Source of the DNA: a virus
Reading direction: 5' to 3' (one strand)
IMG/VR virus record: IMGVR_UViG_3300029389_000414
DNA length: 64,000 nucleotides
Made by a program: the position numbers and the translations under genes
Shown: in pieces, positions 33,331 through 57,959 of the stretch
Numbering within the stretch: the stretch's first letter is position 1
How the letters are laid out: each line of letters opens with the position of its first letter
The notes under the pieces: model-generated
Databases searched by the model: none
What the model was told of the DNA's origin: nothing
The model's input: the letters and a program-made list of their open reading frames with translations, nothing else

Positions 33331-34758
33331 TCAATTACCGAGAGGAATCGCACGCTTTATCATCATCTGATATCCCGAATTATTTTGTAAAAGTCTGCAG
33401 AACTTTGCATTAACTGTGACCAGATCTCCAGATAAGGTCCGGATGTCGAACGATCCGCTCTTACGGATCATGACCCGTCCGGAAAAATGACCTTTATATT
33501 TGTAGTTTGTGTCTTTTGGCACGTCTGCTACGACCAAATCCCCTGTCTGGAAACCAAATGCTGTTTTGGAGCGGTCCTTCCATTTGCGGATGATCACACC
33601 ACATTGATTGATCTGGCCTCGAAGTCTTGTGCCTCTTCCGGTCGCTTTTGCATACAGATAGTATCCATGTGTCCGGTCAACGAATCCGTCTTCTGGAATT
33701 TCGCCTACACATAAAGCGTCATAGTGATGTTCTTTCGGATATTTAAGTACATTCCGATTGTATTTTGTTCTTCCGCCACTGGAACACTCCAGTTCCGGAA
33801 AACGAAGATACAAATGACGCTGCGAGTATCTTCTGCTCGAATTGACCCATGCGGCATACCGGAGTCCTTTAACTGGAGTTTTTCCTTCCATCACCTGTTG
33901 TACAAATTTCTGACGTATCTGATCCAGTTCTTTCTGTTTTCCTCTTTCTTTCGGAATCCGGTCTTGCAGAATTGTCTGCCATTCTTCCAACGTATGATTA
34001 CCTTTATCCTGATTGCAGTTATGACAGGCAAGTGATGCATTTTTGAGCCTGTCAGAACCTCCGCGGCTTCTTGGGAGCATGTGTTCCCATTCTAAAATGG
34101 GATCGTTGCTCTTTCCACCGCAATACTGGCAGGTATGTCCATATTTTTCCAATAAGTATTCTTTTACTTCATAGCCATACAGGGTTCCCTGCTGATATTC
34201 GACACCTTCAATCTCCGGGTTCTCCATGAGCTGTGTATCGAACCGCACGGATTCGATACTGCAGTTTGTAATGTTGATCCAGCGGCACAGACGTCTAATC
34301 CAGGAAATGATGTTGTCAGCGGTGCTTTTGACACTTGGCGGCAGCCAGTTTTCGTCCCGCCGGCTGTCATAGGACTGACGCTGTTCTTTTGCCGTACAAC
34401 GGTTTCCCCATTTCGGCTTGCGGTATCCAGTCTCCCGGCTTCTGCGGTTCCTTCTTGCGCTACGCCTGGTATCCAGGTTCTTTTTGATCTGTTCTCCCCG
34501 ATGCTCGATCTGCATTGCATACATGAATTCATTTGTATCATCCATTACAATTGCGATACCGGTATATTTTGCTCCGGGATCGATCTTGATCCTATAACTG
34601 GAAAGCCCGGAAAGGTTTCTTGCATCGACATCTTTTAAGATAACGATAGTCGGAAAGTAACGATACAGGACTGCACGTTTTTTCTCCAGCAGGATCCGGC
34701 ATCTCCGTTCGCTCATGAAACCAAGCGGACGTTTGTTCTTGTCTAAAGTAATAACCAT
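33331..34758 (-). CDS. iscB: IscB RNA-guided nuclease (PLMP domain, split RuvC, HNH)
   Basis: NKRPLGFMSERRCRILLEKKRAV (PLMP), KIDPGAKYTGIAIV (RuvC-I), CQYCGG...EWEHMLPRSRGGSD...CHNCNQDKG (HNH). Confidence 0.85.
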   Translation of the reverse strand: MVITLDKNKRPLGFMSERRCRILLEKKRAVLYRYFPTIVILKDVDARNLSGLSSYRIKIDPGAKYTGIAIVMDDTNEFMYAMQIEHRGEQIKKNLDTRRSARRNRRSRETGYRKPKWGNRCTAKEQRQSYDSRRDENWLPPSVKSTADNIISWIRRLCRWINITNCSIESVRFDTQLMENPEIEGVEYQQGTLYGYEVKEYLLEKYGHTCQYCGGKSNDPILEWEHMLPRSRGGSDRLKNASLACHNCNQDKGNHTLEEWQTILQDRIPKERGKQKELDQIRQKFVQQVMEGKTPVKGLRYAAWVNSSRRYSQRHLYLRFPELECSSGGRTKYNRNVLKYPKEHHYDALCVGEIPEDGFVDRTHGYYLYAKATGRGTRLRGQINQCGVIIRKWKDRSKTAFGFQTGDLVVADVPKDTNYKYKGHFSGRVMIRKSGSFDIRTLSGDLVTVNAKFCRLLQNNSGYQMMIKRAIPLGN

Positions 34759-35939: not shown

Positions 35940-37290
35940 ATTCCGGTTATTATCACACTAAACTGGCAGTTTTCCCAAAATCTCCGCAAGCGTATGCGTT
36001 CGGCCCGTTCCGGACCTACGATTTTATTGTTTTTTTATGTTGCTAGTAAGATTCGCAACCCTTCTGTTTTGATATTTTTTGCAGCGTTGGTATCCCGGTC
36101 ATGAACCTCACCGCAGTCCGGGCAGATCCATTCCCGTATGCGGAGGTCCCTAACTTCTGGGTTCCGGCAGCCGCAGCAATGGCAGATCTGGCTGGACGGG
36201 AAGAACTTATCTACTTTGACAAGTTTTCCGCCGCGTCCCGCCAGTTTGTAATCCAGCATATCAAGGAACATCCCGTAACCATTATCCAATGTCGCTTTCC
36301 CATTTCCGAATCCTTTATTGGACAAGGAACGCATATTTAAGTCTTCTACACAAACATAAGCATACTGCTTGGCTATCGCAGTTGACTGTTTGTGCAGATA
36401 ATCTTTTCTCTGGTTCGAGATATGCCGGTAAACCCTGGCAATCTGTTTCTGCTGTTTCTGGTAATTTCTGCTCCCGGATACTTTATGTCGCAGTTTCCGC
36501 TGTCTCTTTGCAAGTTTATTTTGTGCCATGCGATAATATCCCGGCATATTTTGACAATTGCCATCACTGTCCATAAAAAGTCCGTCAGACTTATAATCGA
36601 GTCCGATAGCCTGTTCTTCCGTCACCGGAACCAGAGATACTTGAACTTCCTCATATTCAAAAAGTATAGAAATATAATAAGTACCATCCCCATACTGAGA
36701 GATTGTAGCGGATTTGATCTTCCAGTCTTTCTCCGGCAAACGGTGAAGCACCGCTTTGACAGACCCTGCTTTTGGTATGCGGATTCTGCCATCCTCTATA
36801 CGGATCGAACTATTCTGGCAATTGGTTGTATAAGATCTGCGGCAGCGTTTCGCTGATTTGAATTTCGGAAAACCAGTCTTCTTATTACGGAAGAAATTTT
36901 TATAAGCAGTCTGCAGATGCAACTGTACATTTGCAAGTGCAAGGCTGTCTACTTCTTTCAGGTAAGGATAAGATTTCTTATACTGTGCCGGTGTCGTCTG
37001 TAACATCTTTTGTGTCTGTTGATAATATGTTATTTTATCTGCAAGCATCAGGTTCCAGATCTTCCTGCAGCAGCCAAACGTTTTGGCAAACAAGACTTTT
37101 TGCTCTGCAGAAGGGTAGATCCGGTATTTGATCGCACGATTTTGCATAAGTACTCCTTCTTTTGTATTTTGTAATGATAAGTCAATTTTCTCAAATAATC
37201 TGTTATTCTTCAAATTTGTGGACAACATAGTTATGGATTCATCCCGCAACCTATAGAGGTCGGGGAATTCTCCTTGATTTTGTTAATTTG
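35940..37290 (-). mobile_element. IS200/IS605-family TnpB-only element
   Basis: tnpB plus a structured left end. The left end is duplicated as a solo copy at 48225-48300. Confidence 0.6.
36035..37147 (-). CDS. tnpB: TnpB (OrfB) RNA-guided nuclease
   Basis: MQNRAIKYRIYPS N-terminus; RuvC-like core; C-terminal CHCCGC...CPDCG zinc finger. Start at the ATG after aaggag. Confidence 0.85.
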   Translation of the reverse strand: MQNRAIKYRIYPSAEQKVLFAKTFGCCRKIWNLMLADKITYYQQTQKMLQTTPAQYKKSYPYLKEVDSLALANVQLHLQTAYKNFFRNKKTGFPKFKSAKRCRRSYTTNCQNSSIRIEDGRIRIPKAGSVKAVLHRLPEKDWKIKSATISQYGDGTYYISILFEYEEVQVSLVPVTEEQAIGLDYKSDGLFMDSDGNCQNMPGYYRMAQNKLAKRQRKLRHKVSGSRNYQKQQKQIARVYRHISNQRKDYLHKQSTAIAKQYAYVCVEDLNMRSLSNKGFGNGKATLDNGYGMFLDMLDYKLAGRGGKLVKVDKFFPSSQICHCCGCRNPEVRDLRIREWICPDCGEVHDRDTNAAKNIKTEGLRILLAT

Positions 37291-40183: not shown

Positions 40184-40295
40184 CTTCGGTTCCTCCTTTT
40201 TTTCTTCTTATTAATAGTATGGAAAATAATTTGTGGATCCGATTATTTCTAGACAAAAAAAAGAAAGCCTGCATAAGACTTTCTAATTTACGCAA

Positions 40296-40379
40296 CGCTG
40301 CAGGCAGGATTCGAACCTGCATGCCCTTCCGGGCTGACGGTTTTCAGGACCGTGGCTCCACCATCTGAGCGACTGCAGC
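40296..40379 (-). tRNA. tRNA-Ser (anticodon TGA), long variable arm
   Basis: Manual cloverleaf fold: 7-bp acceptor, anticodon loop CCTGAAA, TTCGAAT T-loop. Position 33 is C. Confidence 0.6.
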
Positions 40380-40387
40380 ATATATGA

Positions 40388-40473
40388 CGAAGTGTGGAGG
40401 ATTCGAACCTCCGGATCCGTATCGGATCTCCGGATTAGCAATCCGGTGCAATCGGCCTCTCTGCCAACACTCC
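40388..40473 (-). tRNA. tRNA-Ser (anticodon GCT)
   Basis: Anticodon loop TTGCTAA, long variable arm, GGTTCGAAT T-arm. Confidence 0.7.
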
Positions 40474-40481
40474 ATATTTTA

Positions 40482-40553
40482 AGCTCCTGACAGGATTCGA
40501 ACCTGCAGATACACGATCCGTAGTCGTGTGCCTTATCCATTGGGCTACAGGAG
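40482..40553 (-). tRNA. tRNA-Arg (anticodon ACG)
   Basis: Anticodon stem CACGA/TCGTG with loop CTACGGA; TTCGAAT T-loop. Confidence 0.7.
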
Positions 40554-40558
40554 CATCG

Positions 40559-40631
40559 TACCGTATGCGGGACTCGAACCCGCGATTTCGCCGTGAAAAA
40601 GCGATGACTTATCCAACTTGTCGAATACGGC
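40559..40631 (-). tRNA. tRNA-Glu (anticodon TTC)
   Basis: Anticodon loop TTTTCAC; GGTTCGAGT T-arm; 7-bp acceptor with a G-U pair. Confidence 0.65.
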
Positions 40632-40635
40632 ATAG

Positions 40636-40723
40636 TCGGCAGGGAGAGATTCGGACTCTCAATGTTTACCACATGGGTCACGGTTTTACAGACCGTTTGC
40701 TTCAGCCGTTTGCATACCTACCG
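40636..40723 (-). tRNA. tRNA-Tyr (anticodon GTA), long variable arm
   Basis: Anticodon loop CTGTAAA; variable arm of ~20 nt; C1-G72 acceptor. Confidence 0.5.
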
Positions 40724-40729
40724 AGAAAG

Positions 40730-40802
40730 TGGAACGGGCAGAAATCGAATCTGCGACGCTTGGATCTTCGGCCCAACGCTCTACCAACTGAGCTACCGTT
40801 CC
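40730..40802 (-). tRNA. tRNA-Phe (anticodon GAA)
   Basis: 73 nt; D-arm TAGCTCAGTTGGTAGAGC; loop CCGAAGA with C33. Confidence 0.6.
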
Positions 40803-40818
40803 ATGTAAAATTATGAAG

Positions 40819-41040
40819 TTATATTTCTTGCCTAATGATTAGATCATCGATCTTCACGTTCCAGATATGGGAAAGAATAAGGAGGTTATCGAGGGATGGT
40901 ATAGCCTGTCCGTTCTGCCATTTACATACGGCAGCAGCGGATATTCCACATGCCTCTTGAATCTGCTTTATTGTCATTCCAGATCTTTTTCTCATCTCTT
41001 TCAGTTTCTTTCCTGTTGCATTCATATCAATTGTGATCAT
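40819..41040 (-). CDS. XRE-family HTH transcriptional regulator (73 aa) embedded in the tRNA cluster
   Basis: aggagg RBS; LKEMRKRSGMTIKQIQEACGISAAAVCKWQNGQAIPSL is a Cro/C1-type HTH. Confidence 0.7.
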   Translation of the reverse strand: MITIDMNATGKKLKEMRKRSGMTIKQIQEACGISAAAVCKWQNGQAIPSLDNLLILSHIWNVKIDDLIIRQEI

Positions 41041-41060
41041 TTGTAAAATTCCTCCTATAA

Positions 41061-41144
41061 TATGTCCGGCGGGAGTCGAACCCGCACTTCCTGGGTGAAA
41101 CCGGGGCTTAAACCCGGTGCGTCTTCCAATTTCGCCACGGACAC
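41061..41144 (-). tRNA. tRNA-Leu (anticodon TAA), long variable arm
   Basis: Anticodon stem CCGGG/CCCGG with loop TTTAAGC; GGTTCGACT T-arm. Confidence 0.65.
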
Positions 41145-41426
41145 ATAAAAAATACCGCCTGTCATGCCAGAAACATAACAGACGGTGGATAGGATTCCTT
41201 TTACCAATAGAATACATCAATGCTGACCTGTGTTATTTTCCCCATGACGAATAAGACCAAATTCTTTTTCAAAACTTGATAAACTTTCATAGCGATATTC
41301 ATTTGAGAAAAACAAATTCATCTGTCTCATGATGATTCTCCTTTCATAAAAATTTTTTCCTTCTTTGTAACTACAGTATATCACGCATTGTTATGTGTGA
41401 CAATTCAACCTGTAGTTTAATTTGAC

Positions 41427-41857
41427 CTTTTAGGGTACTACAAATTTACATGGTTCTCAAACCAGCAAAAGAGAATAAAGATGCTTCTGAACTTTTGTGT
41501 CACTACAAATTTACATGGTTCTCAAACTCGTCATACACTGTTTCTCCGATATCTTCCCTTTTGGGGTACTACAAATTTACATGGTTCTCAAACTTCCTAC
41601 TTTTCCGGGGTGTTTTGACTCTCTCTTTTGGGGTACTACAAATTTACATGGTTCTCAAACTCCTTCATCGGCTCCGTAGCCTCCACCGGACTTTTGGGGT
41701 ACTACAAATTTACATGGCTCTCAAACCTTCAACTGCACGAACCAACTGATTTTTCGCTTTTGGGGTACTACAAATTTACATGGTTCTCAAACCTCTTGAC
41801 TTGCTGGAAAGTCCCATAAATCTTTTGGGGTATTACAAATTTACATGGTTCTCAAGT
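41427..41857 (-). CRISPR. orphan CRISPR array: 7 repeats of 36 nt, 6 spacers of 29-31 nt, type II-like repeat
   Basis: Top-strand repeat CTTTTGGGGTACTACAAATTTACATGGTTCTCAAAC; its reverse complement reads GTTTGAGAACCATGTAAATTTGTAGTACCCCAAAAG. Repeats start at 41427, 41492, 41558, 41625, 41691, 41757 and 41822. Six spacers are unique. Repeats 1, 2 and 7 carry point variants. Confidence 0.8.
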
Positions 41858-43013
41858 TATCTAAATCATATAACTGATCAGTCTCTTCCTGAATCGTCGT
41901 GTGGTAGTATACGACTCCGAACTTCTGAATCTTTAATTCTCTCGCGCATTGGTACAGGTATTTGACCTGAGATTTTTCCATCCGGTCAATCATATCATGC
42001 TCTGCCCGTTCCATGATGCAGGAATTCCTGTCCTCTTCCGGTACATACTCATCCGGTTCATAGTAAAGATATTCTCTTCCGCTTTCCATGGACATGATAT
42101 CCGAAATGACAGCGCCAAATCCGCAATTACAGCCATTGCAATCCCAAAAATCGGAGAATACCTTTTCTGCGCTTTCCCCTTCCAAAATACGGTTGTAAAG
42201 TTCTATATTTTCCTTTGTGCAGCAAAATGTATCTGCATGTTTATTGAGAAAATCTGTGAATCCTTCCGGAAGTCCGTCCAAATATAGACCATAACCTGCA
42301 TGAGCATATGGGAATCTTCGATCTGTTTTGGAACCAAAGATTGCACGGAGCAGACGTACTTCCTGCTCATAGCTTTTCTTTTCTTTTACTATGGTATTTT
42401 GAATATATGGCCCTGATTCGTGTAATTTGTTCAGAATATCAGAACCGACCAGGATCATTTTTCCTTTTGCTGTACAAATATAGTAAATATTAAAGGTCGT
42501 ACAGCAGATGCTTCGATCATATTCCCAGGTAATCTCCATGACTTTGGATTCCTCGGCGCCCTCCGGCCATACCTGTATAAAGCCCTGCTCCATATCAGAT
42601 TTCCCATAATCCGTAAAATTAATTGAAACTGCCCCTCTTCCAGGAATTAGAAATTTTAAGATCTTATTCTTTAAGTCCTTCAGGTCTTCATAAATGTCCA
42701 GTCCTTCTGCTTTAAACTGAAAGAAATCGTCAATGTCACTTTCAAACTTCCGAATAACATCTTCAATATCCGGCATTTGATATCCACAGGCAACCATTAA
42801 TTCTGAAAGCGTTACGTTGGACATTTTTGCTGCGATGGTCTCTAATGTTTTCATCCTTGGACAAGATATTCCGGTATCGTTGAGCATCCGACTGATCGTT
42901 TCCTGGGCGATCCCGGTCTGTGCGGCGAATTCTTTCTGAGTCCTGGACCCAATTCCTTTGCGGAGCAATTCTTTAAATTCCTTTTCCTGGAATCCCGTAT
43001 TTTTGTTTTCCAT
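41841..43013 (-). CDS. HTH (XRE-like) domain protein with large C-terminal Cys-containing domain of unknown function
   Basis: aggagg RBS. N-terminal GSRTQKEFAAQTGIAQETISRMLN. Its start codon lies 14 nt after the stop of the beta-prime-like gene, so the two form an operon. Its 3' end overlaps the last CRISPR repeat. Confidence 0.6.
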   Translation of the reverse strand: MENKNTGFQEKEFKELLRKGIGSRTQKEFAAQTGIAQETISRMLNDTGISCPRMKTLETIAAKMSNVTLSELMVACGYQMPDIEDVIRKFESDIDDFFQFKAEGLDIYEDLKDLKNKILKFLIPGRGAVSINFTDYGKSDMEQGFIQVWPEGAEESKVMEITWEYDRSICCTTFNIYYICTAKGKMILVGSDILNKLHESGPYIQNTIVKEKKSYEQEVRLLRAIFGSKTDRRFPYAHAGYGLYLDGLPEGFTDFLNKHADTFCCTKENIELYNRILEGESAEKVFSDFWDCNGCNCGFGAVISDIMSMESGREYLYYEPDEYVPEEDRNSCIMERAEHDMIDRMEKSQVKYLYQCARELKIQKFGVVYYHTTIQEETDQLYDLDNLRTM

Positions 43014-43026
43014 GATCGTCCTCCTG

Positions 43027-44265
43027 TTAGACAGCTTCGAACCGGAGCTGTTTTTTTATATATACGTCAATTGTTTTTGCAATACCTTTTTCCAACTCCT
43101 TTACACATTCCGTGTAATATGCCAGGTTCTCCTCATCTTCTGGATGATAGCCGGCCAGTCCATCCCGGATTCCCTGGGTCAGGATTGCACTTGCTGCATA
43201 CGGAAGCGCATGAACAGCATACTGGAAGATTAGCTCCATAAACTCTTCATACATCTTATGATTTTCGTTTACATATGCCTCCACGAACGGGCGCATAAGA
43301 GATTTCAGATCTGCTTCCATTGCTTCCAGTTTTTTTGCTTCCGGGCTGTCTGCAAAATATGTTTCATCCGAAAGGGAAAGATCATATTGACGGATCTCTT
43401 CTGCCTTTTTCAGAAAAAGATTGACATCTGTGACAGATTCCGGGATCAGCATTTTCTTCTTCGAATCTTCTGTTATTGCTTCATACAATTCTTCCAGTGA
43501 ATCGTTTGGCAGGCAGGTGTACAGATCTGCACCGATAGAACCATGTGCCCCGTTACTGATCAGGCGGTCTGCATATCCCTGCAGTTCCCGTCTTTCATTT
43601 ATTAAGATCACTTCCGGACACTGGATACTTAACAGCCTCTGGTATCTCTTGATCCTTAACAGCAGTGATTCATACAGATTGTTCAGAGAACTACCTTGAT
43701 ACCTTTTTTCCGGTTCGTACCAGAAATACCGCATGCATGCCGGCATTACAGGGACAATGTTCAGAACTGCTGATTTTCTGATCTCTTCCGGAACCTGCTT
43801 CATCTCCATGATTTTTTTGACTGCTTCTGCTCCCGTCAGATAGCCGGCCTTGGAATATTTCGGGTCATCCAGGTATTCTTTTGCAGGAATGGTCTTGGAA
43901 TTGTCTGCATCCGATGAGATATATGTTCTTCCGTAAATGAGAGATTCCAATTCTTTTAATGTCATTCCAAGTTCTTTTGCCAGCACCGGTTTTTTCCCAC
44001 GGGTATACTGGATATTGACGATTGGGATCGGCAGAACAATATGTCCCATCTTCTCAATCTCGTCTGTACTGACCTTTCCCAGATTTTCCTTAGAAAGCTC
44101 CCCGAAAATTTCCGGATCTGAGATTTTTCCAGTCCTGGACTCACTTTCGATATATTCTGTTGGATTAACAACTTCCCCGTTTGACGATTTCAGGATCATT
44201 TCGTCAGAGATATCTGTCATTCCGGCCAGCTGCACTGCTTTTGTATTATACCAGGATCTTATCAT
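43027..44265 (-). CDS. truncated RNA polymerase beta-prime paralog (clamp N-terminal region incl. clamp helices, no Zn-finger, no catalytic DPBB)
   Basis: Aligns to residues ~20-340 of bacterial RpoC. DEMILKSSNGEVVNPTEYIE...ISDPEIFGE matches [20 protein letters not shown]...RDGLFCARIFGP. IEKMGHIVLP matches RERMGHIEL. VLNIVPVMP...GSSLNNLYESLLLRIKRYQRLL...PEVILINERRELQGYADRLISNG matches ILTVLPVLPP...[23 protein letters not shown]...[23 protein letters not shown]. The CxxC zinc-binding cysteines and the NADFDGD region are absent. Start at the second ATG, after GGAGGG. Confidence 0.7.
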   Translation of the reverse strand: MIRSWYNTKAVQLAGMTDISDEMILKSSNGEVVNPTEYIESESRTGKISDPEIFGELSKENLGKVSTDEIEKMGHIVLPIPIVNIQYTRGKKPVLAKELGMTLKELESLIYGRTYISSDADNSKTIPAKEYLDDPKYSKAGYLTGAEAVKKIMEMKQVPEEIRKSAVLNIVPVMPACMRYFWYEPEKRYQGSSLNNLYESLLLRIKRYQRLLSIQCPEVILINERRELQGYADRLISNGAHGSIGADLYTCLPNDSLEELYEAITEDSKKKMLIPESVTDVNLFLKKAEEIRQYDLSLSDETYFADSPEAKKLEAMEADLKSLMRPFVEAYVNENHKMYEEFMELIFQYAVHALPYAASAILTQGIRDGLAGYHPEDEENLAYYTECVKELEKGIAKTIDVYIKKQLRFEAV

Positions 44266-44539
44266 ATGTTTCCCCTCCATGTTATTGATGTGAAATTGAT
44301 ATTTGATTTATATGTTGATATTAGTATATTACAAACCGGAATGAAAAGTCAAGAAAGATTTTGATTTTTAATTGATATTTGATTTGTTTATTGATTTATA
44401 CAAGAAAAATCCCAGGTATCTGCCCGGGACTTTTCCTTGAGGAGTACTTTTCCGAAGTTTTTCCGTTACAATACCTGTTGCACAAGAAAATTCCTGAAAA
44501 AGTAAAAGTAAGAGAAACAACTGTACAGCAAAAATATCT

Positions 44540-45823: not shown

Positions 45824-47098
45824 TTATGCAGTGGTTTTTGTAATATACTGCCAATTATTATTGTGGCAAACATGTTGCAGATTCGAAATACCTACTTGTT
45901 TGTAAGATTTATTTGGCAAAGTAATGTATTGGTTATCAGAATCTTTGACATAAGCAGCGCCACCTGTAAAACCGGATATATAACCGGTCTTACCAAGTAC
46001 GCGGACCTTATCATTCAGATGATATCCACGATAGTATGGCGTGTTCTTTGAATTACGCTTTTGTGTGCGATTCGGTTCTTTTCTTCCCTTGCGTGGAGTT
46101 CCTTCGTGCAGAGAACGTTTCTTTTTACGGAACTGCCGTATAAACAGCCATTCATCCGGATTTTCCGAAATCGTTTGGACTCCACTGATAATAATGGCAT
46201 CATTATAATGTGTTTTATCCAACCCCTTTTCTTTTCGTTTCGGCGTTGTCTCAGAACCATATGTAATGGCAGCATCTGGATATTTTGCAAATATCCTCCT
46301 GCGTAAAGTATTCATAAATGGCGGTTCTTTATACTGCCTGACTTTTTTATGCTGTTCCTGCCACTTGTAGAGCATGCCGCCCTTTTTGTGATTTTTTGAT
46401 GTGTGGCAATCCGTACAGACTGTAATTAGATTGTCAGCTCTGTCTGTGCCGCCGTTACTGCGATAAATGATATGATGTGTCTGTAAAATTTTTCCCTTTG
46501 ATTTGCCACAGCATTGACAGGTATAATTATCTCTTGCAAAAACATAATATCTTTCATCAAAAAAGCCATACGTCTGTCCATGTTGATAATCAACACCATG
46601 AATCTCTGGATCGATCATTTTTGCCGTATCAAATTTCCCGACCTCTATATGAAGTGTCGGGCTTGGCACTAAGCCGCGTAATGTATCAATCCAATGAAAA
46701 GTATGGTCTAATCTGTTTTGTAAGCTGGGCGGCAGCCACTTATCCGCTTTCCTGCGATTAAGAAATCTGGGCTGTCTATATCTTGTCTTCCGATTACGCC
46801 TGCTTCTGCGATAGATACGCCTTGTATCGAGATTCGATTTCACATCCTGGCGGAGTTCTATTTCACCTTTGAATAAAACTTTACCTTCAGAAGTGATAGC
46901 CACTCCTACATGTTTTGCCCCTGTATCTATACCTACATGACAATCTTGTGTGTTTTCTCCTGTTGCATGGGTTAACTGGATTGTAAACGGATTGTATTTA
47001 TAGATGACCGCCTTACCTTCTTTGAGAAGTATTCTGGCTTTTCTTTGTGTGCATGGCATTAATGGAACACCACGCATGTTGAATACAAATACTCTCAT
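45824..47098 (-). CDS. iscB: IscB RNA-guided nuclease, second paralog
   Basis: MRVFVFNMRGVPLMPCTQRKARILLKEGKAVI (PLMP), GIDTGAKHVGVAI (RuvC-I), CQCCGKS...THHIIYRSNGGTD...CTDCH (HNH). I estimate ~35-40% identity to copy 1, by eye. Confidence 0.85.
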   Translation of the reverse strand: MRVFVFNMRGVPLMPCTQRKARILLKEGKAVIYKYNPFTIQLTHATGENTQDCHVGIDTGAKHVGVAITSEGKVLFKGEIELRQDVKSNLDTRRIYRRSRRNRKTRYRQPRFLNRRKADKWLPPSLQNRLDHTFHWIDTLRGLVPSPTLHIEVGKFDTAKMIDPEIHGVDYQHGQTYGFFDERYYVFARDNYTCQCCGKSKGKILQTHHIIYRSNGGTDRADNLITVCTDCHTSKNHKKGGMLYKWQEQHKKVRQYKEPPFMNTLRRRIFAKYPDAAITYGSETTPKRKEKGLDKTHYNDAIIISGVQTISENPDEWLFIRQFRKKKRSLHEGTPRKGRKEPNRTQKRNSKNTPYYRGYHLNDKVRVLGKTGYISGFTGGAAYVKDSDNQYITLPNKSYKQVGISNLQHVCHNNNWQYITKTTA

Positions 47099-47350
47099 AA
47101 TTTTACCTTTGATAACGACTCGCAAGTGTTATCCCTTTCTTTTGAAAGTTTGTTACCCTTCGCCAATGTTGTATCTGCTTGTCATGACCGACCTCACCAG
47201 GTTGACCGCTCCTACCTCACAGAGCTATTACAGAGCCTGCACAGAGCTATGGACTAGGATATCATCCATAGGTGTGATAACAGAAACAACGTAGTGCCCG
47301 CAGCACTTAGGCTAGTCAACTTGAGCTTTTGCAAGCTCCGACCTCTAAGG
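47099..47350 (-). ncRNA. putative omega-RNA of IscB copy 2
   Basis: GC-rich structured sequence directly upstream of iscB, with several stems (e.g. gccataggtcggggtagttgacgcc). Confidence 0.55.
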
Positions 47351-47352
47351 CA

Positions 47353-47892
47353 TCAGCCATAGGTCGGGGTAGTTGACGCCAGAATATCCAGAAACAGATC
47401 CAGGATAGCTGCATCGAACATTGTGTCTGACTGCTCTCTCATATATGCCACAGCCTTTGCTTTGCTCCACCCGTTTCGATATGGACGGTCAGAGATCAGG
47501 GCATCATAAACATCACAGATATGGATGATGCGGGAGCCTAGCGGAATATTGTCCCCGTCCAGCCCGTAATAACCGCTTCCGTCCATATTCTCATGGTGAT
47601 ACAGGATCATATTACAGACTTCCGGAACAAAAAGGTTCTTCATCATATCTGATCCATATACAGCATGTTTCTTTATCTCTGTGTATTCAGAATCAGTCAG
47701 CCGTCCTGGTTTGTCCAGGATTGAGAGCGGGATTTTGATCTTTCCGATATCATGATAAGTGGCAGCTAAGGAGATCTGGCAGATTGTTGTCGTATCCAAA
47801 TCTAAAAGATTAGCAAGCTCTGCTGAAAGATCACCCACCCTATTACTGTGTTTCATCGTATTCTCGTCGAGTTGTGTAAAAAGATTCATCAT
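47353..47892 (-). CDS. HD-GYP-type HD domain protein (stand-alone, variant GYY motif)
   Basis: ggagg RBS; HDIGKIKIP and HHENMDGSGYYG motifs. Confidence 0.7.
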   Translation of the reverse strand: MMNLFTQLDENTMKHSNRVGDLSAELANLLDLDTTTICQISLAATYHDIGKIKIPLSILDKPGRLTDSEYTEIKKHAVYGSDMMKNLFVPEVCNMILYHHENMDGSGYYGLDGDNIPLGSRIIHICDVYDALISDRPYRNGWSKAKAVAYMREQSDTMFDAAILDLFLDILASTTPTYG

Positions 47893-50443: not shown

Positions 50444-50518
50444 CCATTGCTCTAGACAAAAACATCTGAGTGCGATATATTAACAAATAATATCTGAGAA
50501 CGGAAGGAAAGATTAAAC

Positions 50519-50791
50519 ATGCAAACCTATCACCCAGGAGATACCTGCTATATTCTAGAGAACAACCGGATCGTCCGTAAAGCTGTCATTGTAAAACAGA
50601 CCGGGGATTTTTATCTGATCCAGTTCGGGGATTCCAACGGAATGACCAGGCTTCGTAGAAATCGGTTATTCTGCTCTGAACAAGAAGCTTACGACAGCCG
50701 CTATAAAAATGAATACAGGACAAACGAGGATTTGCACGGGTATGTAGATGTATTTGCCGGCAGGCGCACGAACCGGAATCCACACGCATAA
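50519..50791 (+). CDS. hypothetical small protein
   Basis: gaaaggaaagattaaac RBS; 90 aa. Confidence 0.5.
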   Translation: MQTYHPGDTCYILENNRIVRKAVIVKQTGDFYLIQFGDSNGMTRLRRNRLFCSEQEAYDSRYKNEYRTNEDLHGYVDVFAGRRTNRNPHA

Positions 50792-50865: not shown

Positions 50866-53800
50866 TTACTTTTCAGATAAATAATCCTTTCTCTTTCTGG
50901 ATGCGATCATCAGCATGATCAGTGCCGTTCCGATCAGGATTACCAGCATGTAACTTCCTGTGTTCGGAAGTGCATACCAGACGATCCGTTCATTTGTAAA
51001 TGTGACTGCATCGTTCTCACCCTTATCAATTGTCTCAATCTGGGTGGAAAGACTGCTGTTTCGTTTTACGATCCGGTCCGTCTTTTTCACGACAGTCGCC
51101 GCATCAATGCTGTAAGATGGACGATACTCACTGCCGCTCTCTGTGATCTGATACTTACTTCCGACCGGAAGTTCATGGAAGATCATCTGCTCGCCATTCT
51201 TTAAAGAAATGTTCTTTGTTGCATTTCCGCTTGCATCTGCAGTAACGTCTCCTGCTGTAGAAGAGATCACTGCATTCGCCGGAAGTCCGGTGAACTTGAC
51301 GGTAAAGCTGAATGCTTCTTTGGCATTGTAAGCACTGCCATCTGCATTGACTGTTTTCTTTGTCAATGTCAGGTCCTGTGACATCTGGAATTCATTCGTA
51401 AAGGTAACTGTCACCTTTTCTCCCTTGTCTGCTGTCTCTGTTGCAGTAGAGATCTCCTGATCCTCTTCTGTGTTTGCTCCGGATGCTGTTGCGATCTTCT
51501 GAAGTCCTGCTGCATCCGTGACTGCATAGCTGGAAGTGTATGCTCCTGCTGCTTCCGTGAACCGGTAAGTACATCCGGCCGGCAGATGCAGGAATGTAAC
51601 ATTCTCTCCCTTGCCAAGCGTAAATGTTACGGTTGCTTTTCCATCCGCATCAGACTGGAACTCTGTTTCATCAGAAAGTCCGTAATTCCAGTTCGCCCTT
51701 AAATGATCGAATACTGCTGTGAACTGGAATTTCTCCACGGCTCCGGCATCCTCCGGAAGTACTTTCTTGGATACCGTGAGGTTGACTTCATCTTCTCCAG
51801 GTTCTTCTTCTTTCAAATGCATGTTCACAAAACTTGCTTCTGCAGTCTTTCCATCTTCAATGGTTCCTGCATCTCCTGTTGTCATGATTGGACGATACAA
51901 TCCGCTCTGCTCTTCCACGACACGGTATGTCGTTCCGCTTGGAATGTCTTCGATCAGTTTGCTCTCTCCATGCTTCAGGGAGATTGTTCCAACACCATTG
52001 GTGAATGTCACTCCTGAGAGCATCATGGAGTCTTTGATCCGGCTGCCTTTCAGCGTGATCGTGAACTTGAATGCTTTGTTCTTATTTCCATTTTGAATGG
52101 TCTTCGTAATTTTCAGCTTACCGACTGTCTCATCCGGCACTTCAACTGTCTGGTCTTTGTCAGTGAGGTCGCTGTGCTGTGCTACAAGCACCTGTTTCCC
52201 GTCCACCGTTGTATAGACACTTTCGCAGACTACCAGGGTCTTGTTCTTTGCTTCGGAACTGCTGATCTCAAAGTCCAAAGTCTCTGTTCCGCTGGTCGCG
52301 GATGCCGCAAATGTCTTGGATGCTGTCACATCTTTTCCATTCTCCTGGTACGCATTTCCGGTGGCTTTATCCATCAGTGTTCCCTGGAGCGTATAAGATG
52401 TTCCTTTTGTGAGTCCGTAGTATTTGACCGTATCCCGTACTGTCTGGCTCGTATAACGGTCATTCTGGCCGGCAGTCGTCTGAATGGCTGCTGTTGTTGT
52501 GATTCCGGCAACCGTCACTGTCTGTCCTGCATCTTTCAGGTCCTTATGCTGTGCAATGACCACTCCGTCTGCATAGCAGATCTCTTCATAAACAACAAGT
52601 GTCTTACCCATGAGATTTCTTCCTTTAATTGGGATCTCAACATCAATGCTTCCATTGGTCTCATCCGGAAGGATCTCTGACTCTACGATGATGTCATTTC
52701 CGTCAGAGTCTTTAGCTGCCTTGCCTGTTGCTTTGTCCATGACCGTGGATCTTACAGTCAACGGGAGTCCTGTCTGCATGCCGGTATAACTGATCGTATC
52801 TACGATGGTCATGTCATCCTGCGCATCAATGACTTTTGTACCGTTCCGTTTATCAACAGCTGTCGTGCTTGTGATGACTGGGAAGGACAATGTCTGATAC
52901 TCGTTATCCAGTGATCTCTCAGACACGATCTCTTTTCCATTCAGGCTCAATGTCTCGTATGCCACCAGGCTGGAGGTATTCAGGTTCGCGGCATTCAGCG
53001 TGAATTCTACATCTACTTCACCGCTCTTCTCCGCCGGGGTAAAGGTCTTTGTAACGGTCATTTCTTTTCCATTTCCGTCCACGAACACTTTTCCGGTCGC
53101 TTTCTCAATGAGCTGACCGGTCAGTGTATAAGACTGTCCCGGAATCAGGCCTTCATAATAGACCGTATCCACTGCATTGACACTGGAAGAAGCTTTTACG
53201 AACTGTGTATTCGTCGCTGCGTCTACAAGCTGTGTGGTGATGCCTGGAACATTGACCAGCTGGTCTTCGTCGTCCATGTCTTCGTGGGAAGCCCATTTTT
53301 CCATGGATCCATTATCCGTGATCCGGTAAAGTGTTTCATAAACAACATATTCACCACCTGGCATACCTACACCGTTAAATGTAAGGTCTACCGTCGCACT
53401 GCCTGATGTGGCGGATGCCGCAAAGTCTTTATTTCCTGTGATCGGCTGTCCATCTCCGTCTACGGCAGCTTCTCCTGTCAGCTTGTCCATCAGGACTGCC
53501 TGCAGCTGGTATTTATATCCTGCCACTGCGCCCTTATAACTAACGGTATCTGTAATGGTTGTTTTGCTGCTGAGTGTTACCTGCTTGCTTCCAGATGCTT
53601 TATCTTTCGCAACAGTACTGATAAATGTCGTGGTCGCTGTCAGCTCACTGACCTCTTTGAACGTGCGTCCCGGATATAAGATCTCCTGTTCGAACTTGTC
53701 CTTATTAATACCTTCCTCGTTCAAGACCTGGCCGCTTTCTGTACATAATACATATTTCGAACCGTCATCACTTAAACGGTAATATCCTTCTGCCTTGCTG

Positions 53801-56800
53801 CCTTCATAGGATACGGCATTCTTTAAATGATAGATCGTATAAGGAGCAGCTTTAACCAGTTCATAGTTGCTGTCTTTGCTCGGTTCTACTTTGGTGATGT
53901 CATATTCATCTTTACCATAGGTACATTCCCTGGTACTGGAAATGACTTTACCGGTTGTCTTGTCTACGATCTTTCCTTCGATGGTATATACATTTCCAGG
54001 GATCAGCCCGATCATGTCTACTTCGTCAGATATGCCTTTGTCTGTATAAGCAACATTGTCTGAAGAGACATAAGTGTTTGTGATCACCGGGATGCTGACT
54101 GTCTGATCTTCGTTCGACAAATCTTTTTCAGCGGCCCATTCAATATAATTCTCATAGACAGAAGGGTCTGTGTAGGAGAAATAGACCTGTACATAGGAAG
54201 TTAGTTTCTGTCCTGCATATTTTTTCATGACATCTGAGGATAAGCTGTAGGTCAGTGCTGTACCATTTTCCAGTTCCTCTTTTGTGACCTGATGGCATGC
54301 GATCTCAGACTTGATCTGATTTCCGCTGTTGTCTGTGACCGGATTCCCGGACGCATCCATTAAAGTTCCTTCATACTTGATATAGTAGAAATTGATCTCA
54401 TCATAGGAAGGGAAGTTGTGCAGATCGATCTTGTCTTTCAGCGTGACTGTCTTGCCATTGGTCTGCAGGTCATGTAACCCAGTAGAGGAATCAGTAAGTT
54501 CTGTTGTGATGTTCTGGAAGCTGACTGTTTCCTGTGGATCATTCATGTCCGTGTGTGATACTAACAGGTTGTCATAATTCGGAGTCCCGTCAGATTTCAG
54601 TTCATAAATATAGGTAAAGAACACATAGTCCTTTCCCAGCATGTTTGACACATCTTTGACCGGCATGGTAATGCTTCCTGTTCCGGTGTATCCTGCTGCA
54701 GTATCGTTATACTCGATCAGTGTTCCTGTTGCCTGAAGGTCATTTCCGTTCTCATCTTTGACAAAATCTCCAGTCTCTTTATCGACCAGCTTGCTGACGA
54801 TATAGCCGGAAGTCAGGCCTTTGACATTGATATCGTCACAGAGTACGGTTGCATATTCTCCCTTATAAACACCCATATCATAATATGGCGCTTTATGATC
54901 GAACTGGATCCGGTTCGTTTCGGATTCACTGCCATAAGAAGTGGTACTGACCTCAATACTGGTATTTACGATCTTACCAAGGTCTACGACTGCAGCACTG
55001 TTCCCATTGACTGAGAAGGAACCGGTGTACATGACCATCCCCTTATTTGCCGCACTGGATACCTCTTCGATCGTGTAATCTCCGTATTCAAATGCGCCCT
55101 GATCGTCAGAGAGCTGATCCATATCCCCGAACCATACCCCGGCACCTGCCTGGTCTGAATTCGTGTCTTTTGTATTCACCAGTTTTGAAGAATCAAAGAT
55201 ACCGTTCTCATCTGTGTAGACTGTATGGCTCTCGCCTGTTCTTGTGTTCGTGATCTTGAACGGAACGTCTGCGATCGGATTGTCATTGACACCATTGACC
55301 TTGAGGAGTTTGATATCACTTCTTGCATAAGAGTCCTGCCCCTCGAAAGTCTGGCTTCCCATGAGCTTCGTAAGGTCTCCCTCATTCCTGATCTGTGCAA
55401 GGTAGACTCCGTTCTTACTGGAATTTCCCTGTGCATCTGTCATCTCCAGGTCATTCCTGTATCCTTCCGGTGCTTTCATTTCCTGGATCGTAATGGTTCC
55501 GCGAGGGATCGTAGGAATCGTTCCTGCATAATAAAAGGAATCACCGCCCACCTTATAGCTGTCTGTTAATCCAGCCACATAGACTTTTCCATTTTTCGAA
55601 GTCTTTTCTTTCGTCTCGACCACCCATGTCCTGGTCGCTTTTGATGGAAGCGTATCCTGATCATAAAAGCCTGCATAGTAGCTGACCGTGAACTGTGCCC
55701 CGGCCATGGACGTTCCGCCTTCCGGATCATCGCCGGTCAGCTTGTCTTTCTTCGTGATCTGTATTGCTGACGGATCGTTCACCGGTTCATCCGATACACT
55801 CACAACTTTTGTATCACAGTTCCCCAGATAAAAAGATCCGACGGACTGATTTAGTTCATATCCTTCCGGAGCCTGTGTTTCCTTGTAATAGTAAGTTCCT
55901 GTATCTAATGTTGCAGTACCGGTATTTCCGTTTCCATCCGTACTTAGTGTTGCGACGCGGTTCGTACAGCCTGCATCACTGTAAATGGAATACTGTGCGC
56001 CTGCCAGGGAATAACAGATGTTCCCATTGGTGATGGCAGAATTGGACGATGACTTCCGGAACTGTACCGTGGACGCATTCATGACCTGGAACGCCATTGG
56101 CTGTGCCCGTCTGTTTCCGTTTATATAACTGGTATCAAAATAATAACAGCCATATCCTGCCGGTGCAGAAGCCATCCATGTGATCTGGGTCGCTTTATTT
56201 TTGATATGGTTCTTTACAGAACTGGAAACACCATGGAATGCGTTGTTCGCTCTTCCTGTATCATGCAGTACATATAATGCATACATATACGAAAGCATGA
56301 TATGCGTATAAGCATATTCATACTGTTGGGATCCATCCCAGATCCATCCATAGCTGTTCACAAAAGAACTGTATCCAGGACCTCCGTATGCATAGTAAAA
56401 TGCTTTCCTCACGACATCATTATCGATCAGGTATCCCGTGTACCAGCCTGCCTTTGGTGTCTTCCAGACCGGATTCATACAATAGGCATATTGGTTTTCA
56501 TTGGTCGTATAGTATCTGGTCGTATAAGAACCGTACCGGACTGATGATCCCGGCACATTCAGATAAATGGATTTACTGCCTGCGATCCTTGCAGACTGAG
56601 CAGATACATTTGAGTCATCACTGCATACAGCAACTTCATTTGCACTGCCTCCACTGTTCGCTTCTATCTGTGCGATCTCTTCATCTGTAAGTTCCTCTTC
56701 AAAAGCGGCAGAACCTTCCTCATCCATCTGGTCAAGCTGTTCATCCGTGTAAGCTTCAAAAGAAGCTGTGATCTTTGCTTCACTTTCTGGCATTGTAAAG

Positions 56801-57604: not shown

Positions 57605-57745
57605 TTTCAATATAGTGACCCGGTATATATCCATTTTCTTATATCACGTCACTATACTGACCCAGTTTAGATTAATTGTGGGTCATTATACTGACCCGTT
57701 TTTAATGAACACAACCAATGAGGTCACTATACTGACCCAGTTCTA
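57605..57745. repeat. cluster of four 16-bp GTCACTATACTGACCC iterons (three direct, one inverted) upstream of the adhesin gene
   Basis: 57611 is inverted (tatagtgacccgg); 57649, 57683 (gggtcattatactgaccc) and 57726 are direct. Confidence 0.6.
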
Positions 57746-57959
57746 ATAAGTATCTTCTGCGTGGGGAGTGGCATGAGCTAAAAAAAAGGACACCCAGAGG
57801 CATCCTTTTCTTATGATCTTTGGATATATACGTCGGAAGCTGCTGCACCATTCTATGCAGGAATTGTATTGGCATTTTCTGCAGATGTCGTCTGAGCAGC
57901 TGCTTCTGCCTGATTTCCTGCCTGTTTATTTGCCTGTTCCGCTTGTTTGGCTGGTCCTT

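What the first reader, a model, noticed from the sequence alone, without database searches (positions are those of the whole stretch)
41427..41857. Orphan type II-like CRISPR array with no cas genes nearby
The 36-nt repeat, read on the minus strand, starts GTTTGAGAA and ends CCCCAAAAG. That shape, and the 29-31-nt spacers, match type II arrays. There is no cas9, cas1, cas2 or csn2 anywhere in the 64-kb window. The terminal repeat overlaps the stop of the HTH gene. Arrays like this on mobile elements can serve as mini-arrays against competing elements or hijack a host Cas9.
Basis: seen in the sequence. Interest (0 to 1): 0.65.

Follow-up and report, generated by a model that had tools for sequence, protein, structure and literature searches.

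The report
CRISPR array orphaned by cas9 deletion
This is a genuine type II CRISPR array on an integrated mobile element of a human-gut Lachnospiraceae bacterium; it lost its own cas9 and tracrRNA through a recent ~6-kb deletion, so it is a stranded remnant and not a stand-alone weapon, although its spacers still match gut phages perfectly.

Summary
There are seven 36-nt repeats and six 29–31-nt spacers at 41427–41857, and the 64-kb window has no cas9, cas1, cas2, csn2 or tracrRNA.

The array is not an independent mini-array. At least ten sister elements (93–99% identical flanks) carry, between the same HTH gene and the same array, a PDDEXK gene, an antitoxin, a canonical tracrRNA and a 1356-aa Cas9. 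L034 is 98.6–99.3% identical to the window up to base 41854 and then continues into that module. The window instead jumps ~6.1–6.4 kb into an internal repeat, so "repeat 7" is a deletion junction that supplies the HTH gene's last codons and stop.

Spacers W2 and W3 match IMG/VR gut phage contigs 30/30. Family spacers share an NNNRAT 3' PAM (P≈1e-6).

The array units are unchanged relative to cas9+ sisters, so the deletion is recent. The array is most likely inert unless Cas9 and tracrRNA are supplied in trans.

Side findings: the family's Cas9 has D10N/H983N RuvC substitutions (predicted HNH-only nickase), the locus has no adaptation genes, and the array appears to grow at its cas9-distal end.

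The finding itself is ordinary; the family is moderately interesting.

The parts
41427..41857 (-). CRISPR array: 7 repeats of 36 nt and 6 spacers (W1-W6, numbered from the high-coordinate end). The crRNA sense is the minus strand (GTTTGAGAAC...CCCCAAAAG).
   Evidence: The crRNA strand is set by complementarity to the sister-element tracrRNA anti-repeat and by homology to canonical II-A repeats of relatives.
41822..41857 (-). Chimeric 'repeat 7', which is the deletion junction. HTH-gene sequence ...GATTTAGATAACTT is joined to repeat position ~5 (GAGAACCATGTAA...). The breakpoint is at about 41853/41854, with TT microhomology. The repeat supplies the last codons (LRTM) and the TAA stop of the HTH gene.
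   Evidence: cas9+ sisters read ...GATTTAGACAACTT|TTATTTATGYTAG (DNFYLC*). L034 is 98.6% identical to the window up to 41854 and then diverges. The repeat preceding spacer W1 in sisters is GTTTGAGAACCATGTAAATTTGTAATACCCCAAAAG, identical apart from the first 2 nt.
41727..41756 (-). Spacer W2 (CGAAAAATCAGTTGGTTCGTGCAGTTGAAG). It has a 30/30 protospacer in IMG/VR contig IMGVR_UViG_3300029441_000300, with 3' flank AAAAAT.
41661..41690 (-). Spacer W3 (TCCGGTGGAGGCTACGGAGCCGATGAAGGA). It has 30/30 protospacers in 8 IMG/VR contigs (4-39 kb; four are 28-38 kb). In L024 and L027 the site lies inside the ORF of a tyrosine integrase. The 3' flank is AGTAAT.
   Evidence: A diverged copy of the same target is the 27/31 hit in the integrase of Clostridium phage phiCs5676-1.
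41385..41426 (-). Conserved cas9-distal flank of the array. On the plus strand the junction reads AATTTGAC|CTTTTAGGG, which resembles a type II-A leader end. This flank also holds the promoter of the downstream 37-aa ORF (TTGTCA-17-TATACT with a TG extension, 41403->41375).
   Evidence: junction identical in 12 of 13 loci. Compared with canonical leaders ...TTTGAG|GTTTGAGAG in L036 and L038.
41841..43013 (-). HTH_3-domain gene (390 aa). It is the upstream neighbour whose 3' end was fused to the array. With no promoter or terminator detected between it and the array, it is the probable source of any read-through transcription of the array.
   Evidence: The same gene lies upstream of PDDEXK_2-antitoxin-tracrRNA-cas9 in sisters.

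Best explanation
The array is what remains of a minimal type II CRISPR-Cas module (tracrRNA, cas9 and array, with no cas1, cas2 or csn2) carried by a family of large integrated mobile elements in uncultured human-gut Lachnospiraceae. In the lineage sampled by this window, a single ~6.1-6.4 kb deletion with a 2-nt microhomology junction joined the 3' end of the upstream HTH gene to an internal repeat. It removed a PDDEXK_2 gene, a PhdYefM antitoxin gene, the tracrRNA, cas9 and the cas9-proximal repeat-spacer units (at least 4, and 6-7 in most sisters). Steps that are shown: the deletion, the identity of the lost genes, the type II nature of the array, real phage protospacers with a consistent 3' PAM, and the lack of decay since the deletion. 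Steps that are inferred: the array can now be transcribed only by read-through from the HTH operon. Without tracrRNA and Cas9 in cis its transcripts cannot be processed or used, so it is functionally inert. It could work only if a co-resident sister element or another locus in the same cell supplied the matching Cas9 and tracrRNA. In intact sisters the module most likely lets the element attack competing temperate phages, with a Cas9 predicted to cut only the target strand.
For: Array reality. Sister loci L012-L016 share W1-W6 in various combinations and have the same downstream flank. In L016 a 1356-aa ORF ending at the first repeat is Cas9 (TIGR01865 at 772 bits; Pfam REC, PI, HNH, BH and RuvC; PDB 9jwk_A at 2.8e-181). 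The tracrRNA has a 12/12 sigma-70 promoter, a 7+15 bp duplex with the repeat around a bulge (cofold -46 to -48 kcal/mol) and a terminator hairpin, and it is 98% conserved in L017 and L018. The synteny HTH390-[PDDEXK_2]-antitoxin-tracr-cas9-array-37aa ORF-HTH73 holds in L017/L018, L029-L035 and L028. Breakpoints; L034 is 98.6-99.3% identical to the window over 9.1 kb up to 41854. No cas9 or tracrRNA in the window. No adaptation genes. Protospacers at 30/30 for W2 and W3, and four more family spacers hit the same phage group at 27-29 of 29-30 nt. PAM NNNRAT in 5 of 6 independent protospacers, against a background of 0.044, gives P=9.5e-7. Window repeat-spacer units are identical to those of cas9+ sisters except for 2 junction nt and 1 nt in W4. 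No minus-strand promoter or terminator lies between the HTH gene and the array.
Against: Only about 10 kb beyond each end of the window could be inspected. A second cas9/tracrRNA locus elsewhere in the host chromosome, or on a co-resident element, cannot be excluded. The perfect conservation of repeats and spacers is also what purifying selection on a trans-used array would produce. All 12 contigs carrying the deletion come from a few related sample series, so neither persistence nor turnover of the orphan array can be judged. Expression was not tested.
Confidence: 0.8

Rival explanations
1. The array still works, in trans. Its read-through transcript is processed and loaded by a Cas9:tracrRNA pair encoded elsewhere, either on a co-resident cas9+ sister element or at a compatible locus in the host. 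The cas9-less element would then keep anti-phage immunity, or free-ride on it, without paying for cas9.
For: Repeats and spacers are undecayed, and W2 and W3 still match extant phages 30/30. The family is common in gut metagenomes, with 365 Cas9 and 237 HTH sequence variants, so co-residence is conceivable. Adaptation-less and array-less CRISPR loci that rely on trans components are well documented (PMC12669027; PMC11656645).
Against: No cas9 or tracrRNA lies in the window or within ~10 kb of either end. No representative genome carries this repeat. The nearest chromosomal II-A system (P0002, 56% identity) has a repeat that differs at about 8 of the first 25 nt, so cross-use is doubtful. Sister elements would occupy the same integration site, which makes stable co-residence unlikely (inference). 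Lack of decay is equally explained by a recent deletion.
Confidence: 0.14
2. The orphan array acts as an RNA decoy (an RNA anti-CRISPR). Its repeat-containing transcripts would soak up the Cas9:tracrRNA of invading cas9+ sister elements and protect the Δcas9 element from them.
For: Phage- and MGE-borne repeat units that mimic crRNAs and inhibit CRISPR systems are known (review PMC11656645; a Cas9-directed RNA mimic in bioRxiv 10.64898/2026.06.03.729762, seen). The repeats here pair perfectly with the sister tracrRNA.
Against: The configuration arises from one simple deletion, with no dedicated promoter. The spacers are the inherited ones. No sister-element spacer significantly targets this element, so there is no evident threat to counter (the only lead is a 20/22 match of one L017 spacer at 41286-41307, at chance level after multiple testing).
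Confidence: 0.04
3. The array belongs to one of the neighbouring OMEGA nucleases (IscB at 45824-47125 or TnpB at 36035-37249) and supplies their guides, as in the rare CRISPR-associated IscB loci.
For: IscB and TnpB lie about 4 kb on either side of the array.
Against: The IscB has its own ωRNA immediately upstream (Rfam HEARO at 122 bits, against a gathering score of 83). Three unrelated genes separate it from the array. Sisters L029-L033 have the array and cas9 but no IscB at that site, while L034 has both. The repeat pairs with a Cas9-type tracrRNA.
Confidence: 0.01
4. It is not CRISPR at all, but a tandem repeat or a coding repeat (for example the 99-aa plus-strand ORF at 41450-41749).
For: A 99-aa ORF spans part of the array.
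Against: The spacers are unique, vary between sister loci, match phage DNA 30/30 and carry a shared PAM. The same array abuts cas9 and tracrRNA in relatives. The ORF is a by-product of the repeat periodicity.
Confidence: 0.01

Closest known systems
Canonical type II-A CRISPR-Cas (tracrRNA, cas9-cas1-cas2-csn2, leader, array; e.g. S. pyogenes). The nearest natural example found here is the chromosomal locus of P0002 (L036).
   Same: 36-nt unstructured repeat starting GTTTGAGA, ~30-nt spacers and a 3' PAM. The cognate Cas9 of sister elements is a long SpCas9-class protein (REC+PI; SpCas9 E~1e-118) with a divergently transcribed upstream tracrRNA.
   Different: The window has no cas gene and no tracrRNA. 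Intact sisters also lack cas1, cas2, csn2 and a 5' leader, since the cas9 stop abuts a degenerate first repeat. Their Cas9 has D10N and H983N. The array's conserved old end is next to cas9 and its variable end is distal.
Isolated or orphan CRISPR arrays in bacterial genomes and their mobile elements (Bernheim et al. 2019, PMC7145637; Pinilla-Redondo et al. 2021, PMC9071438)
   Same: An array without adjacent cas genes, located on a mobile element.
   Different: Here the origin is documented base by base (a deletion of the cognate cas9 and tracrRNA), with the intact ancestral state preserved in sister elements.
Virus-borne CRISPR mini-arrays used in inter-virus conflict (reviewed in PMC11656645)
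   Same: An MGE-borne array with no cas genes, whose spacers target other mobile elements.
   Different: Mini-arrays have 1-2 spacers, repeats identical to the host's CRISPR, and spacers against close relatives. This array has 6 spacers, a repeat found in no representative genome, and targets that are unrelated temperate phages and not sister elements.
Variant II-C2: phage-encoded Cas9 with an inactivated RuvC and an apparently active HNH (Makarova et al. 2025, PMC12669027; PMC11656645)
   Same: The sister elements' Cas9 is MGE-encoded, lacks an adaptation module, and has RuvC catalytic substitutions with an intact HNH.
   Different: It is a II-A-class Cas9 (1356 aa), and its nearest RuvC-intact relative sits in a cas9-cas1-cas2-csn2 operon. 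Only 2 of 4 RuvC catalytic residues are replaced. Its arrays carry phage-matching spacers with a PAM, which points to targeting and not to crRNA sequestration. This Cas9 is not present in the window.
RNA anti-CRISPRs / solitary repeat units on phages (reviewed in PMC11656645)
   Same: Repeat-bearing RNA on an MGE without cas genes.
   Different: This is a multi-spacer array inherited by deletion, with no dedicated promoter.

Membership tests
CRISPR array (generic) | Three or more near-identical direct repeats of 23-47 nt at regular spacing | tested here: met
   7 repeats of 36 nt, spacing 65-67 nt, 0-3 mismatches to the consensus.
CRISPR array (generic) | Unique spacers of uniform length that vary between related strains | tested here: met
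   6 unique spacers of 29-31 nt. 51 distinct spacers across 11 related arrays, with shared and private blocks.
CRISPR array (generic) | Spacers match foreign DNA (protospacers) with a shared adjacent motif | tested here: met
   W2 and W3 match at 30/30 in 9 IMG/VR contigs. NNNRAT occurs in 5 of 6 independent protospacers, P=9.5e-7.
Type II CRISPR-Cas locus | cas9 adjacent to the array | tested here: not met
   No Cas9 in the window (tblastn best E=3.7; PADLOC). The feature is met in sister loci, where Cas9 scores 772 bits on TIGR01865 directly upstream of the same array.
Type II CRISPR-Cas locus | tracrRNA with an anti-repeat complementary to the repeat | tested here: not met
   There is no anti-repeat in the window: mismatch search, BLAST, a duplex scan whose best site (-28.4 kcal/mol) falls within the range for shuffled repeats (-24 to -34), and no homologue of the sister tracrRNA. 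The feature is met in sisters.
Type II CRISPR-Cas locus | Repeat of type II character: ~36 nt, unstructured, homologous to repeats of bona fide type II loci, with ~30-nt spacers | tested here: met
   MFE 0 kcal/mol. 17 of the first 25 nt are identical to the repeat of the relative's locus L038 (P0005 Cas9), and the partial repeat of the canonical cas9-cas1-cas2-csn2 locus L036 is similar.
Subtype II-A | csn2 (with cas1 and cas2) in the locus | tested here: not met
   Absent from the window and from all intact sister loci. Present in the nearest chromosomal relative.
Subtype II-A | Leader ending ATTTGAG-like at the 5' (GTTT) end of the first repeat, with new spacers added there | tested here: not met
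   In sisters the cas9 stop abuts a degenerate first repeat. The conserved old spacers (s07, s08...) are at that end, and the unique spacers and homogeneous repeats are at the other end. An ATTTGAC-like junction lies on the opposite strand at the distal end.
Viral/MGE mini-array | Only 1-2 spacers | tested here: not met
   6 spacers here and up to ~19 in sisters.
Viral/MGE mini-array | Repeat identical to the host's own CRISPR repeat | tested here: inconclusive
   No hits for two repeat patterns in 185,579 species-representative genomes. However, the actual host genome (an uncultured Lachnospiraceae) was not available.
Viral/MGE mini-array | Spacers target close relatives of the carrier element | tested here: not met
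   No significant match of any of 46 family spacers to ~300 kb of sister-element DNA. The identified targets are unrelated temperate phages, which show no similarity to the window.
Variant II-C2 (applies to the sister-element Cas9, not to the window) | RuvC catalytic residues lost and HNH retained | tested here: met
   D10->N and H983->N. E762, D986, D839 and H840 are retained in L016, P0001 and L030.
Variant II-C2 (applies to the sister-element Cas9, not to the window) | Cas9 of the II-C lineage | tested here: not met
   The best structural-sequence matches are long II-A Cas9s (9jwk_A over the full length; SpCas9 at 1e-118), whereas compact Cas9s (Nme, Sau and others) score only 1e-10 to 1e-14. 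The nearest relative is in a csn2-containing operon. No phylogeny was built.
CRISPR-associated IscB / OMEGA | Array adjacent to iscB and replacing the ωRNA guide | tested here: not met
   The IscB has its own HEARO ωRNA. Array and IscB occur independently among sisters.

The most novel reading that the evidence does not exclude
The window preserves one state (cas9 lost) of an undescribed MGE-borne, II-A-derived minimal CRISPR module. Its features would be a natural HNH-only nickase Cas9 (D10N/H983N), no adaptation genes, and an array that grows at the end distal to cas9 (the 3' end in crRNA sense) next to a leader-like junction on the opposite strand, while still inserting spacers in the PAM-correct orientation. 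cas9 has been lost or broken in at least two lineages (deleted here, frameshifted in L028) while arrays are kept. That would fit cas9-less elements persisting as users or cheaters of Cas9 supplied in trans.
Probability: 0.2. Interest if true: 0.65.

Novelty: new member of a known kind. Interest (0 to 1): 0.4.

Why it matters
For this finding the main value is the explanation. An apparently mysterious orphan array, and the odd overlap of a repeat with a gene's stop codon, are both accounted for by one mapped deletion, so the array should not be read as a new kind of cas-independent system. It is also a clean natural example of how orphan arrays arise, with ancestral and derived alleles both sampled. 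The wider family may deserve attention in its own right. It is an abundant human-gut Lachnospiraceae element with a tracrRNA-cas9-array module that lacks adaptation genes. Its SpCas9-class Cas9 has two RuvC catalytic residues replaced, which predicts a natural target-strand nickase with an NNNRAT-type PAM. Its array polarity is opposite to canonical II-A. If confirmed, these features bear on how mobile elements use Cas9 against rival phages.

Tried and rejected
1. Exact repeat and half-repeat scans of IMG/VR returned nothing, as did two scans of GTDB representative genomes. No host or viral array with this repeat was found there.

2. Megablast of the locus against INPHARED phages and PLSDB plasmids gave no match.

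3. Blastn of the whole array against phages and plasmids gave only E≈2-6 hits. In hindsight, one of them (the phiCs5676-1 integrase) is a diverged homologue of the true W3 target.

4. Anti-repeat searches in the window by mismatch search, BLAST and duplex energy left one candidate, at 50491-50535. I rejected it because shuffled repeats reach equal or better energies.

5. Spacers W1, W5 and a W4 core had no IMG/VR match.

6. Sibling targeting: 46 family spacers against all held sister DNA gave nothing significant.

7. The PADLOC 'Csx1' and 'Cas9' model hits turned out to be the TnpB and a 207-aa HNH endonuclease.

8. Two encoding-contig look-ups failed because of start-codon differences.

9. 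A jumbo-phage reading of the element was considered and dropped. No capsid, terminase or tail PHROGs were found in the window, and a serine recombinase at the window's start abuts chromosomal housekeeping genes.

Full report
**1. The observation**

The sequence at 41427-41857 contains seven copies of a 36-nt repeat with start-to-start spacing of 65-67 nt. They are separated by six unique spacers of 29-31 nt. A whole-window repeat scan finds no second array. On the minus strand the consensus is GTTTGAGAACCATGTAAATTTGTAGTACCCCAAAAG, and it has no predicted structure (MFE 0 kcal/mol). The stop codon of the 390-aa HTH_3 gene (41841-43013, minus strand) lies inside the repeat copy at 41822-41857.

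**2. No cas genes in the window**

- Nearly all genes are on the minus strand.
- A seven-tRNA cluster lies directly below the array, at 40295-41145.
- Rfam finds a HEARO/IscB ωRNA at 47148-47377, upstream of a 433-aa RRXRR+HNH IscB. A second IscB (33331-34758) and a TnpB (36035-37249) are also present.
- A PADLOC screen of all 141 ORFs of ≥85 aa finds no Cas1, Cas2, Csn2 or Cas9. Its 'Csx1' and Cas12f hits are the TnpB, and its weak 'Cas9' hits are a 207-aa HNH endonuclease.
- tblastn with the cognate Cas9 (see section 3) finds nothing in the window (best E=3.7).
- No anti-repeat is present by mismatch search, BLAST or duplex energy. The best thermodynamic site (50491-50535, -28.4 kcal/mol) is within the range obtained with shuffled repeats.

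**3. Relatives supply the answer**

A metagenome scan for the repeat core returned five human-gut contigs (L012-L016). Their flanks are 93-99% identical to the window, and they carry longer arrays at the same position, sharing window spacers W1-W6 in various combinations.

In L016 a 1356-aa ORF ends exactly at the first (degenerate) repeat. It is a Cas9:
- TIGR01865 at 772 bits.
- Pfam Cas9_REC, Cas9_PI, HNH_4, bridge helix and RuvC.
- Full-length match to PDB 9jwk_A (2.8e-181) and to SpCas9 (~1e-118).

Upstream of that cas9, on the opposite strand, lies a textbook tracrRNA:
- A TTGACA-16-TATAAT promoter (12/12).
- An anti-repeat, ACAAATTTACATGG-AGAG-TTCAAAT, which pairs with the repeat over 15+7 bp around a bulge.
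- Further stem-loops and a terminator hairpin followed by a T-run.
- It is 98% conserved in L017 and L018.

Longer contigs establish the family synteny: adhesin, NERD, PP2C, HD, a 310-aa protein, RNAP-like 412 aa, HTH390, [PDDEXK_2], PhdYefM antitoxin (minus strand), tracrRNA, cas9, array, 37-aa ORF, HTH73, tRNAs, RNase H.

**4. The deletion**

- L034 also carries the IscB/HEARO insertion seen in the window. It is 98.6-99.3% identical to the window over 9.1 kb, up to window base 41854, and then continues into PDDEXK_2, antitoxin, tracrRNA and cas9.
- Sisters end the HTH gene as ...GATTTAGACAACTT|TTATTTATGYTAG (…DLDNFYLC*). The window reads ...GATTTAGATAACTT|GAGAACCATGTAA (…DLDNLRTM*). That is HTH sequence joined to position ~5 of the repeat that precedes spacer W1 in sisters, and it shares that repeat's GTAATACC variant.
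- Relative to L029 and L032 the missing segment is 6.1-6.4 kb.
- This explains both the orphan state and the overlap of a repeat with a stop codon.
- The remaining repeat-spacer units are identical to those of cas9+ sisters, apart from the 2 junction bases and 1 base in W4. Even the 'degenerate' repeats of the window exist in the same positions in sisters. So there has been no decay since the deletion.
- cas9 is also broken independently in L028, by a frameshift that yields 165- and 887-aa fragments.
- Nine of eleven distinct alleles examined have an intact cas9.

**5. The array is, or was, a working immune memory**

- The PAM-proximal 22-mers of W2 and W3 hit one and eight IMG/VR contigs respectively, and every hit extends to 30/30 identity outside any array.
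- In L024 and L027, W3 lies within the ORF of a tyrosine integrase. That integrase is 59% identical to the integrase of [Clostridium] scindens phage phiCs5676-1.
- Four further family spacers hit the same phage group at 27-29 of 29-30 positions.
- Five of six independent protospacers have R-A-T at positions +4 to +6 on the 3' side. The background frequency is 0.044, giving P=9.5e-7. This indicates an NNNRAT-type PAM on the canonical side for Cas9.
- No spacer significantly matches sister-element DNA.

**6. The element and its host**

Just beyond the window's low end, after the large serine recombinase (window 1-1671), come rsmD-like, coaD, pepD, M23 and rsmB/F genes. The element is therefore integrated in a chromosome. 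The flanking dipeptidase is 63-66% identical to proteins from [Clostridium] hylemonae, Bariatricus and Lachnospiraceae. No phage structural PHROGs occur in the window. The locus matches nothing in INPHARED or PLSDB. No representative genome of 185,579 species carries the repeat.

**7. Mechanism**

Shown: the array's cognate effector and tracrRNA were element-encoded and have been deleted here.

Inferred: no minus-strand promoter or terminator lies between the HTH gene and the array, so the array can be transcribed only by read-through. Without tracrRNA and Cas9 the transcript cannot be matured or used. I therefore regard it as a recently stranded, currently inert array (confidence ~0.8). The main rival is use in trans by a Cas9:tracrRNA pair encoded elsewhere (~0.14). 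RNA-decoy, OMEGA-associated and non-CRISPR readings are unlikely for the reasons given in the rival explanations.

**8. Features of the family noticed on the way**

- The Cas9 of L016, P0001 and L030 has Asn at the positions of SpCas9 D10 and H983. It retains E762, D986, D839 and H840. This predicts an HNH-only nickase.
- The same two substitutions occur in P0003 and P0005 (55-56% identity). P0005 sits on a different MGE that also lacks adaptation genes, but its two arrays have canonical 5' leaders.
- The nearest RuvC-intact relative (P0002, 56% identity) sits in a chromosomal cas9-cas1-cas2-csn2 operon.
- A phage Cas9 with an inactive RuvC has been catalogued as rare variant II-C2 (PMC12669027; PMC11656645). 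The present proteins are II-A-class, so they may be an independent case.
- In this family the conserved spacers (s07, s08...) and the degenerate repeats are at the cas9-proximal end. Each array ends distally with private spacers flanked by homogeneous repeats, next to an invariant junction that reads AATTTGAC|CTTTTAGGG on the opposite strand. This polarity is opposite to canonical II-A and to the relatives in L036 and L038, yet the PAM orientation is canonical. I could not resolve how that works. A deletion-plus-recombination history is not formally excluded.

**9. Verdict**

The 'type II orphan array' reading is right. The 'mini-array that hijacks a host Cas9' reading is not supported. The finding itself is a new member of a known kind (an orphan array created by cas loss) and of modest interest. 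The intact module in sister elements is the more interesting object.

Noticed in passing
window 45824-47377 (-); also 33331-34758 (-) and 36035-37249 (-): A 433-aa IscB with its HEARO ωRNA (Rfam 122 bits) sits ~4 kb from the array. It is an insertion present in the window and L034 but absent at that site in L029-L033. A second IscB (475 aa) and a TnpB (Cas12f-like) are also in the window, so the element is rich in OMEGA nucleases.
   Followed up: partly
L016 780-4850; L030 10001-14071; proteins P0001, P0003, P0005: The family's Cas9 has Asn at both SpCas9 D10 and H983 (RuvC), with E762, D986 and the HNH residues D839/H840 intact. This predicts a natural target-strand nickase. The same pair of substitutions occurs in a 55-56%-identical clade on another MGE (L038) that also lacks cas1, cas2 and csn2.
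   Followed up: partly
window 41412-41435 (+) and the arrays of L012-L033: Array polarity appears reversed relative to canonical II-A. Old shared spacers and degenerate repeats lie next to cas9, and private spacers with homogeneous repeats lie at the distal end. The invariant distal junction AATTTGAC|CTTTTAGGG resembles a II-A leader end on the opposite strand, yet the PAM is on the canonical 3' side. Unexplained.
   Followed up: partly
L028 9507-12664: cas9 is frameshifted (165-aa and 887-aa fragments) in a 149-kb contig of the same family. This is a second, independent loss of cas9 with the array retained.
   Followed up: partly
window 1-1671 (-) and L039 12711-20537: A large serine recombinase at the window's start is followed by chromosomal housekeeping genes (rsmD-like, coaD, pepD, M23 peptidase, rsmB/F). 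The element is therefore integrated, and the host is an uncultured Lachnospiraceae (pepD 63-66% identical to C. hylemonae and Bariatricus).
   Followed up: partly
window 41217-41330 (-) and 40819-41040 (-): A 37-aa ORF (MRQMNLFFSNEYRY...) has a strong promoter flanked by an inverted repeat. After tRNA-Leu comes a 73-aa HTH_3 protein. Both are conserved immediately downstream of the array in almost all sisters. They could be a regulatory or Acr/Aca-like pair. One L017 spacer matches 20 of 22 nt inside the small ORF (41286-41307), at chance level after multiple testing.
   Followed up: no
window 40295-41145 (-): A cluster of seven tRNA genes (Ser x2, Arg, Glu, Tyr, Phe, Leu) lies inside the mobile element, directly downstream of the array.
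   Followed up: no
window 10921-11817 (-); 3845-4381 (-); 4400-5617 (-): An AcrVA2-like protein (Pfam PF26125, from the precomputed annotation of L039). Separately, an adjacent pair of a PARP-domain protein and a macrodomain protein that matches the DarG model, which suggests counter-defence or ADP-ribosylation functions.
   Followed up: no
window 57606-57750 (+): Four copies of a ~28-nt motif (GTCACTATACTGACCCAGTT...) spaced 34-42 nt apart, just upstream of the 2177-aa LPXTG-type adhesin gene (50866-57399). They look like iterons or operator sites.
   Followed up: no
L016 164-439 (-); L017 6364-6609 (-): A PhdYefM-family antitoxin gene sits next to the tracrRNA in all cas9+ sisters, with no obvious toxin partner. 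It was lost together with cas9 in the window's deletion.
   Followed up: no
window 43027-44280 (-): A 417-aa protein matching only domain 1 of the RNA polymerase largest subunit (PF04997, 45 bits). It is conserved next to the HTH gene in all sisters, and its function is unclear.
   Followed up: no
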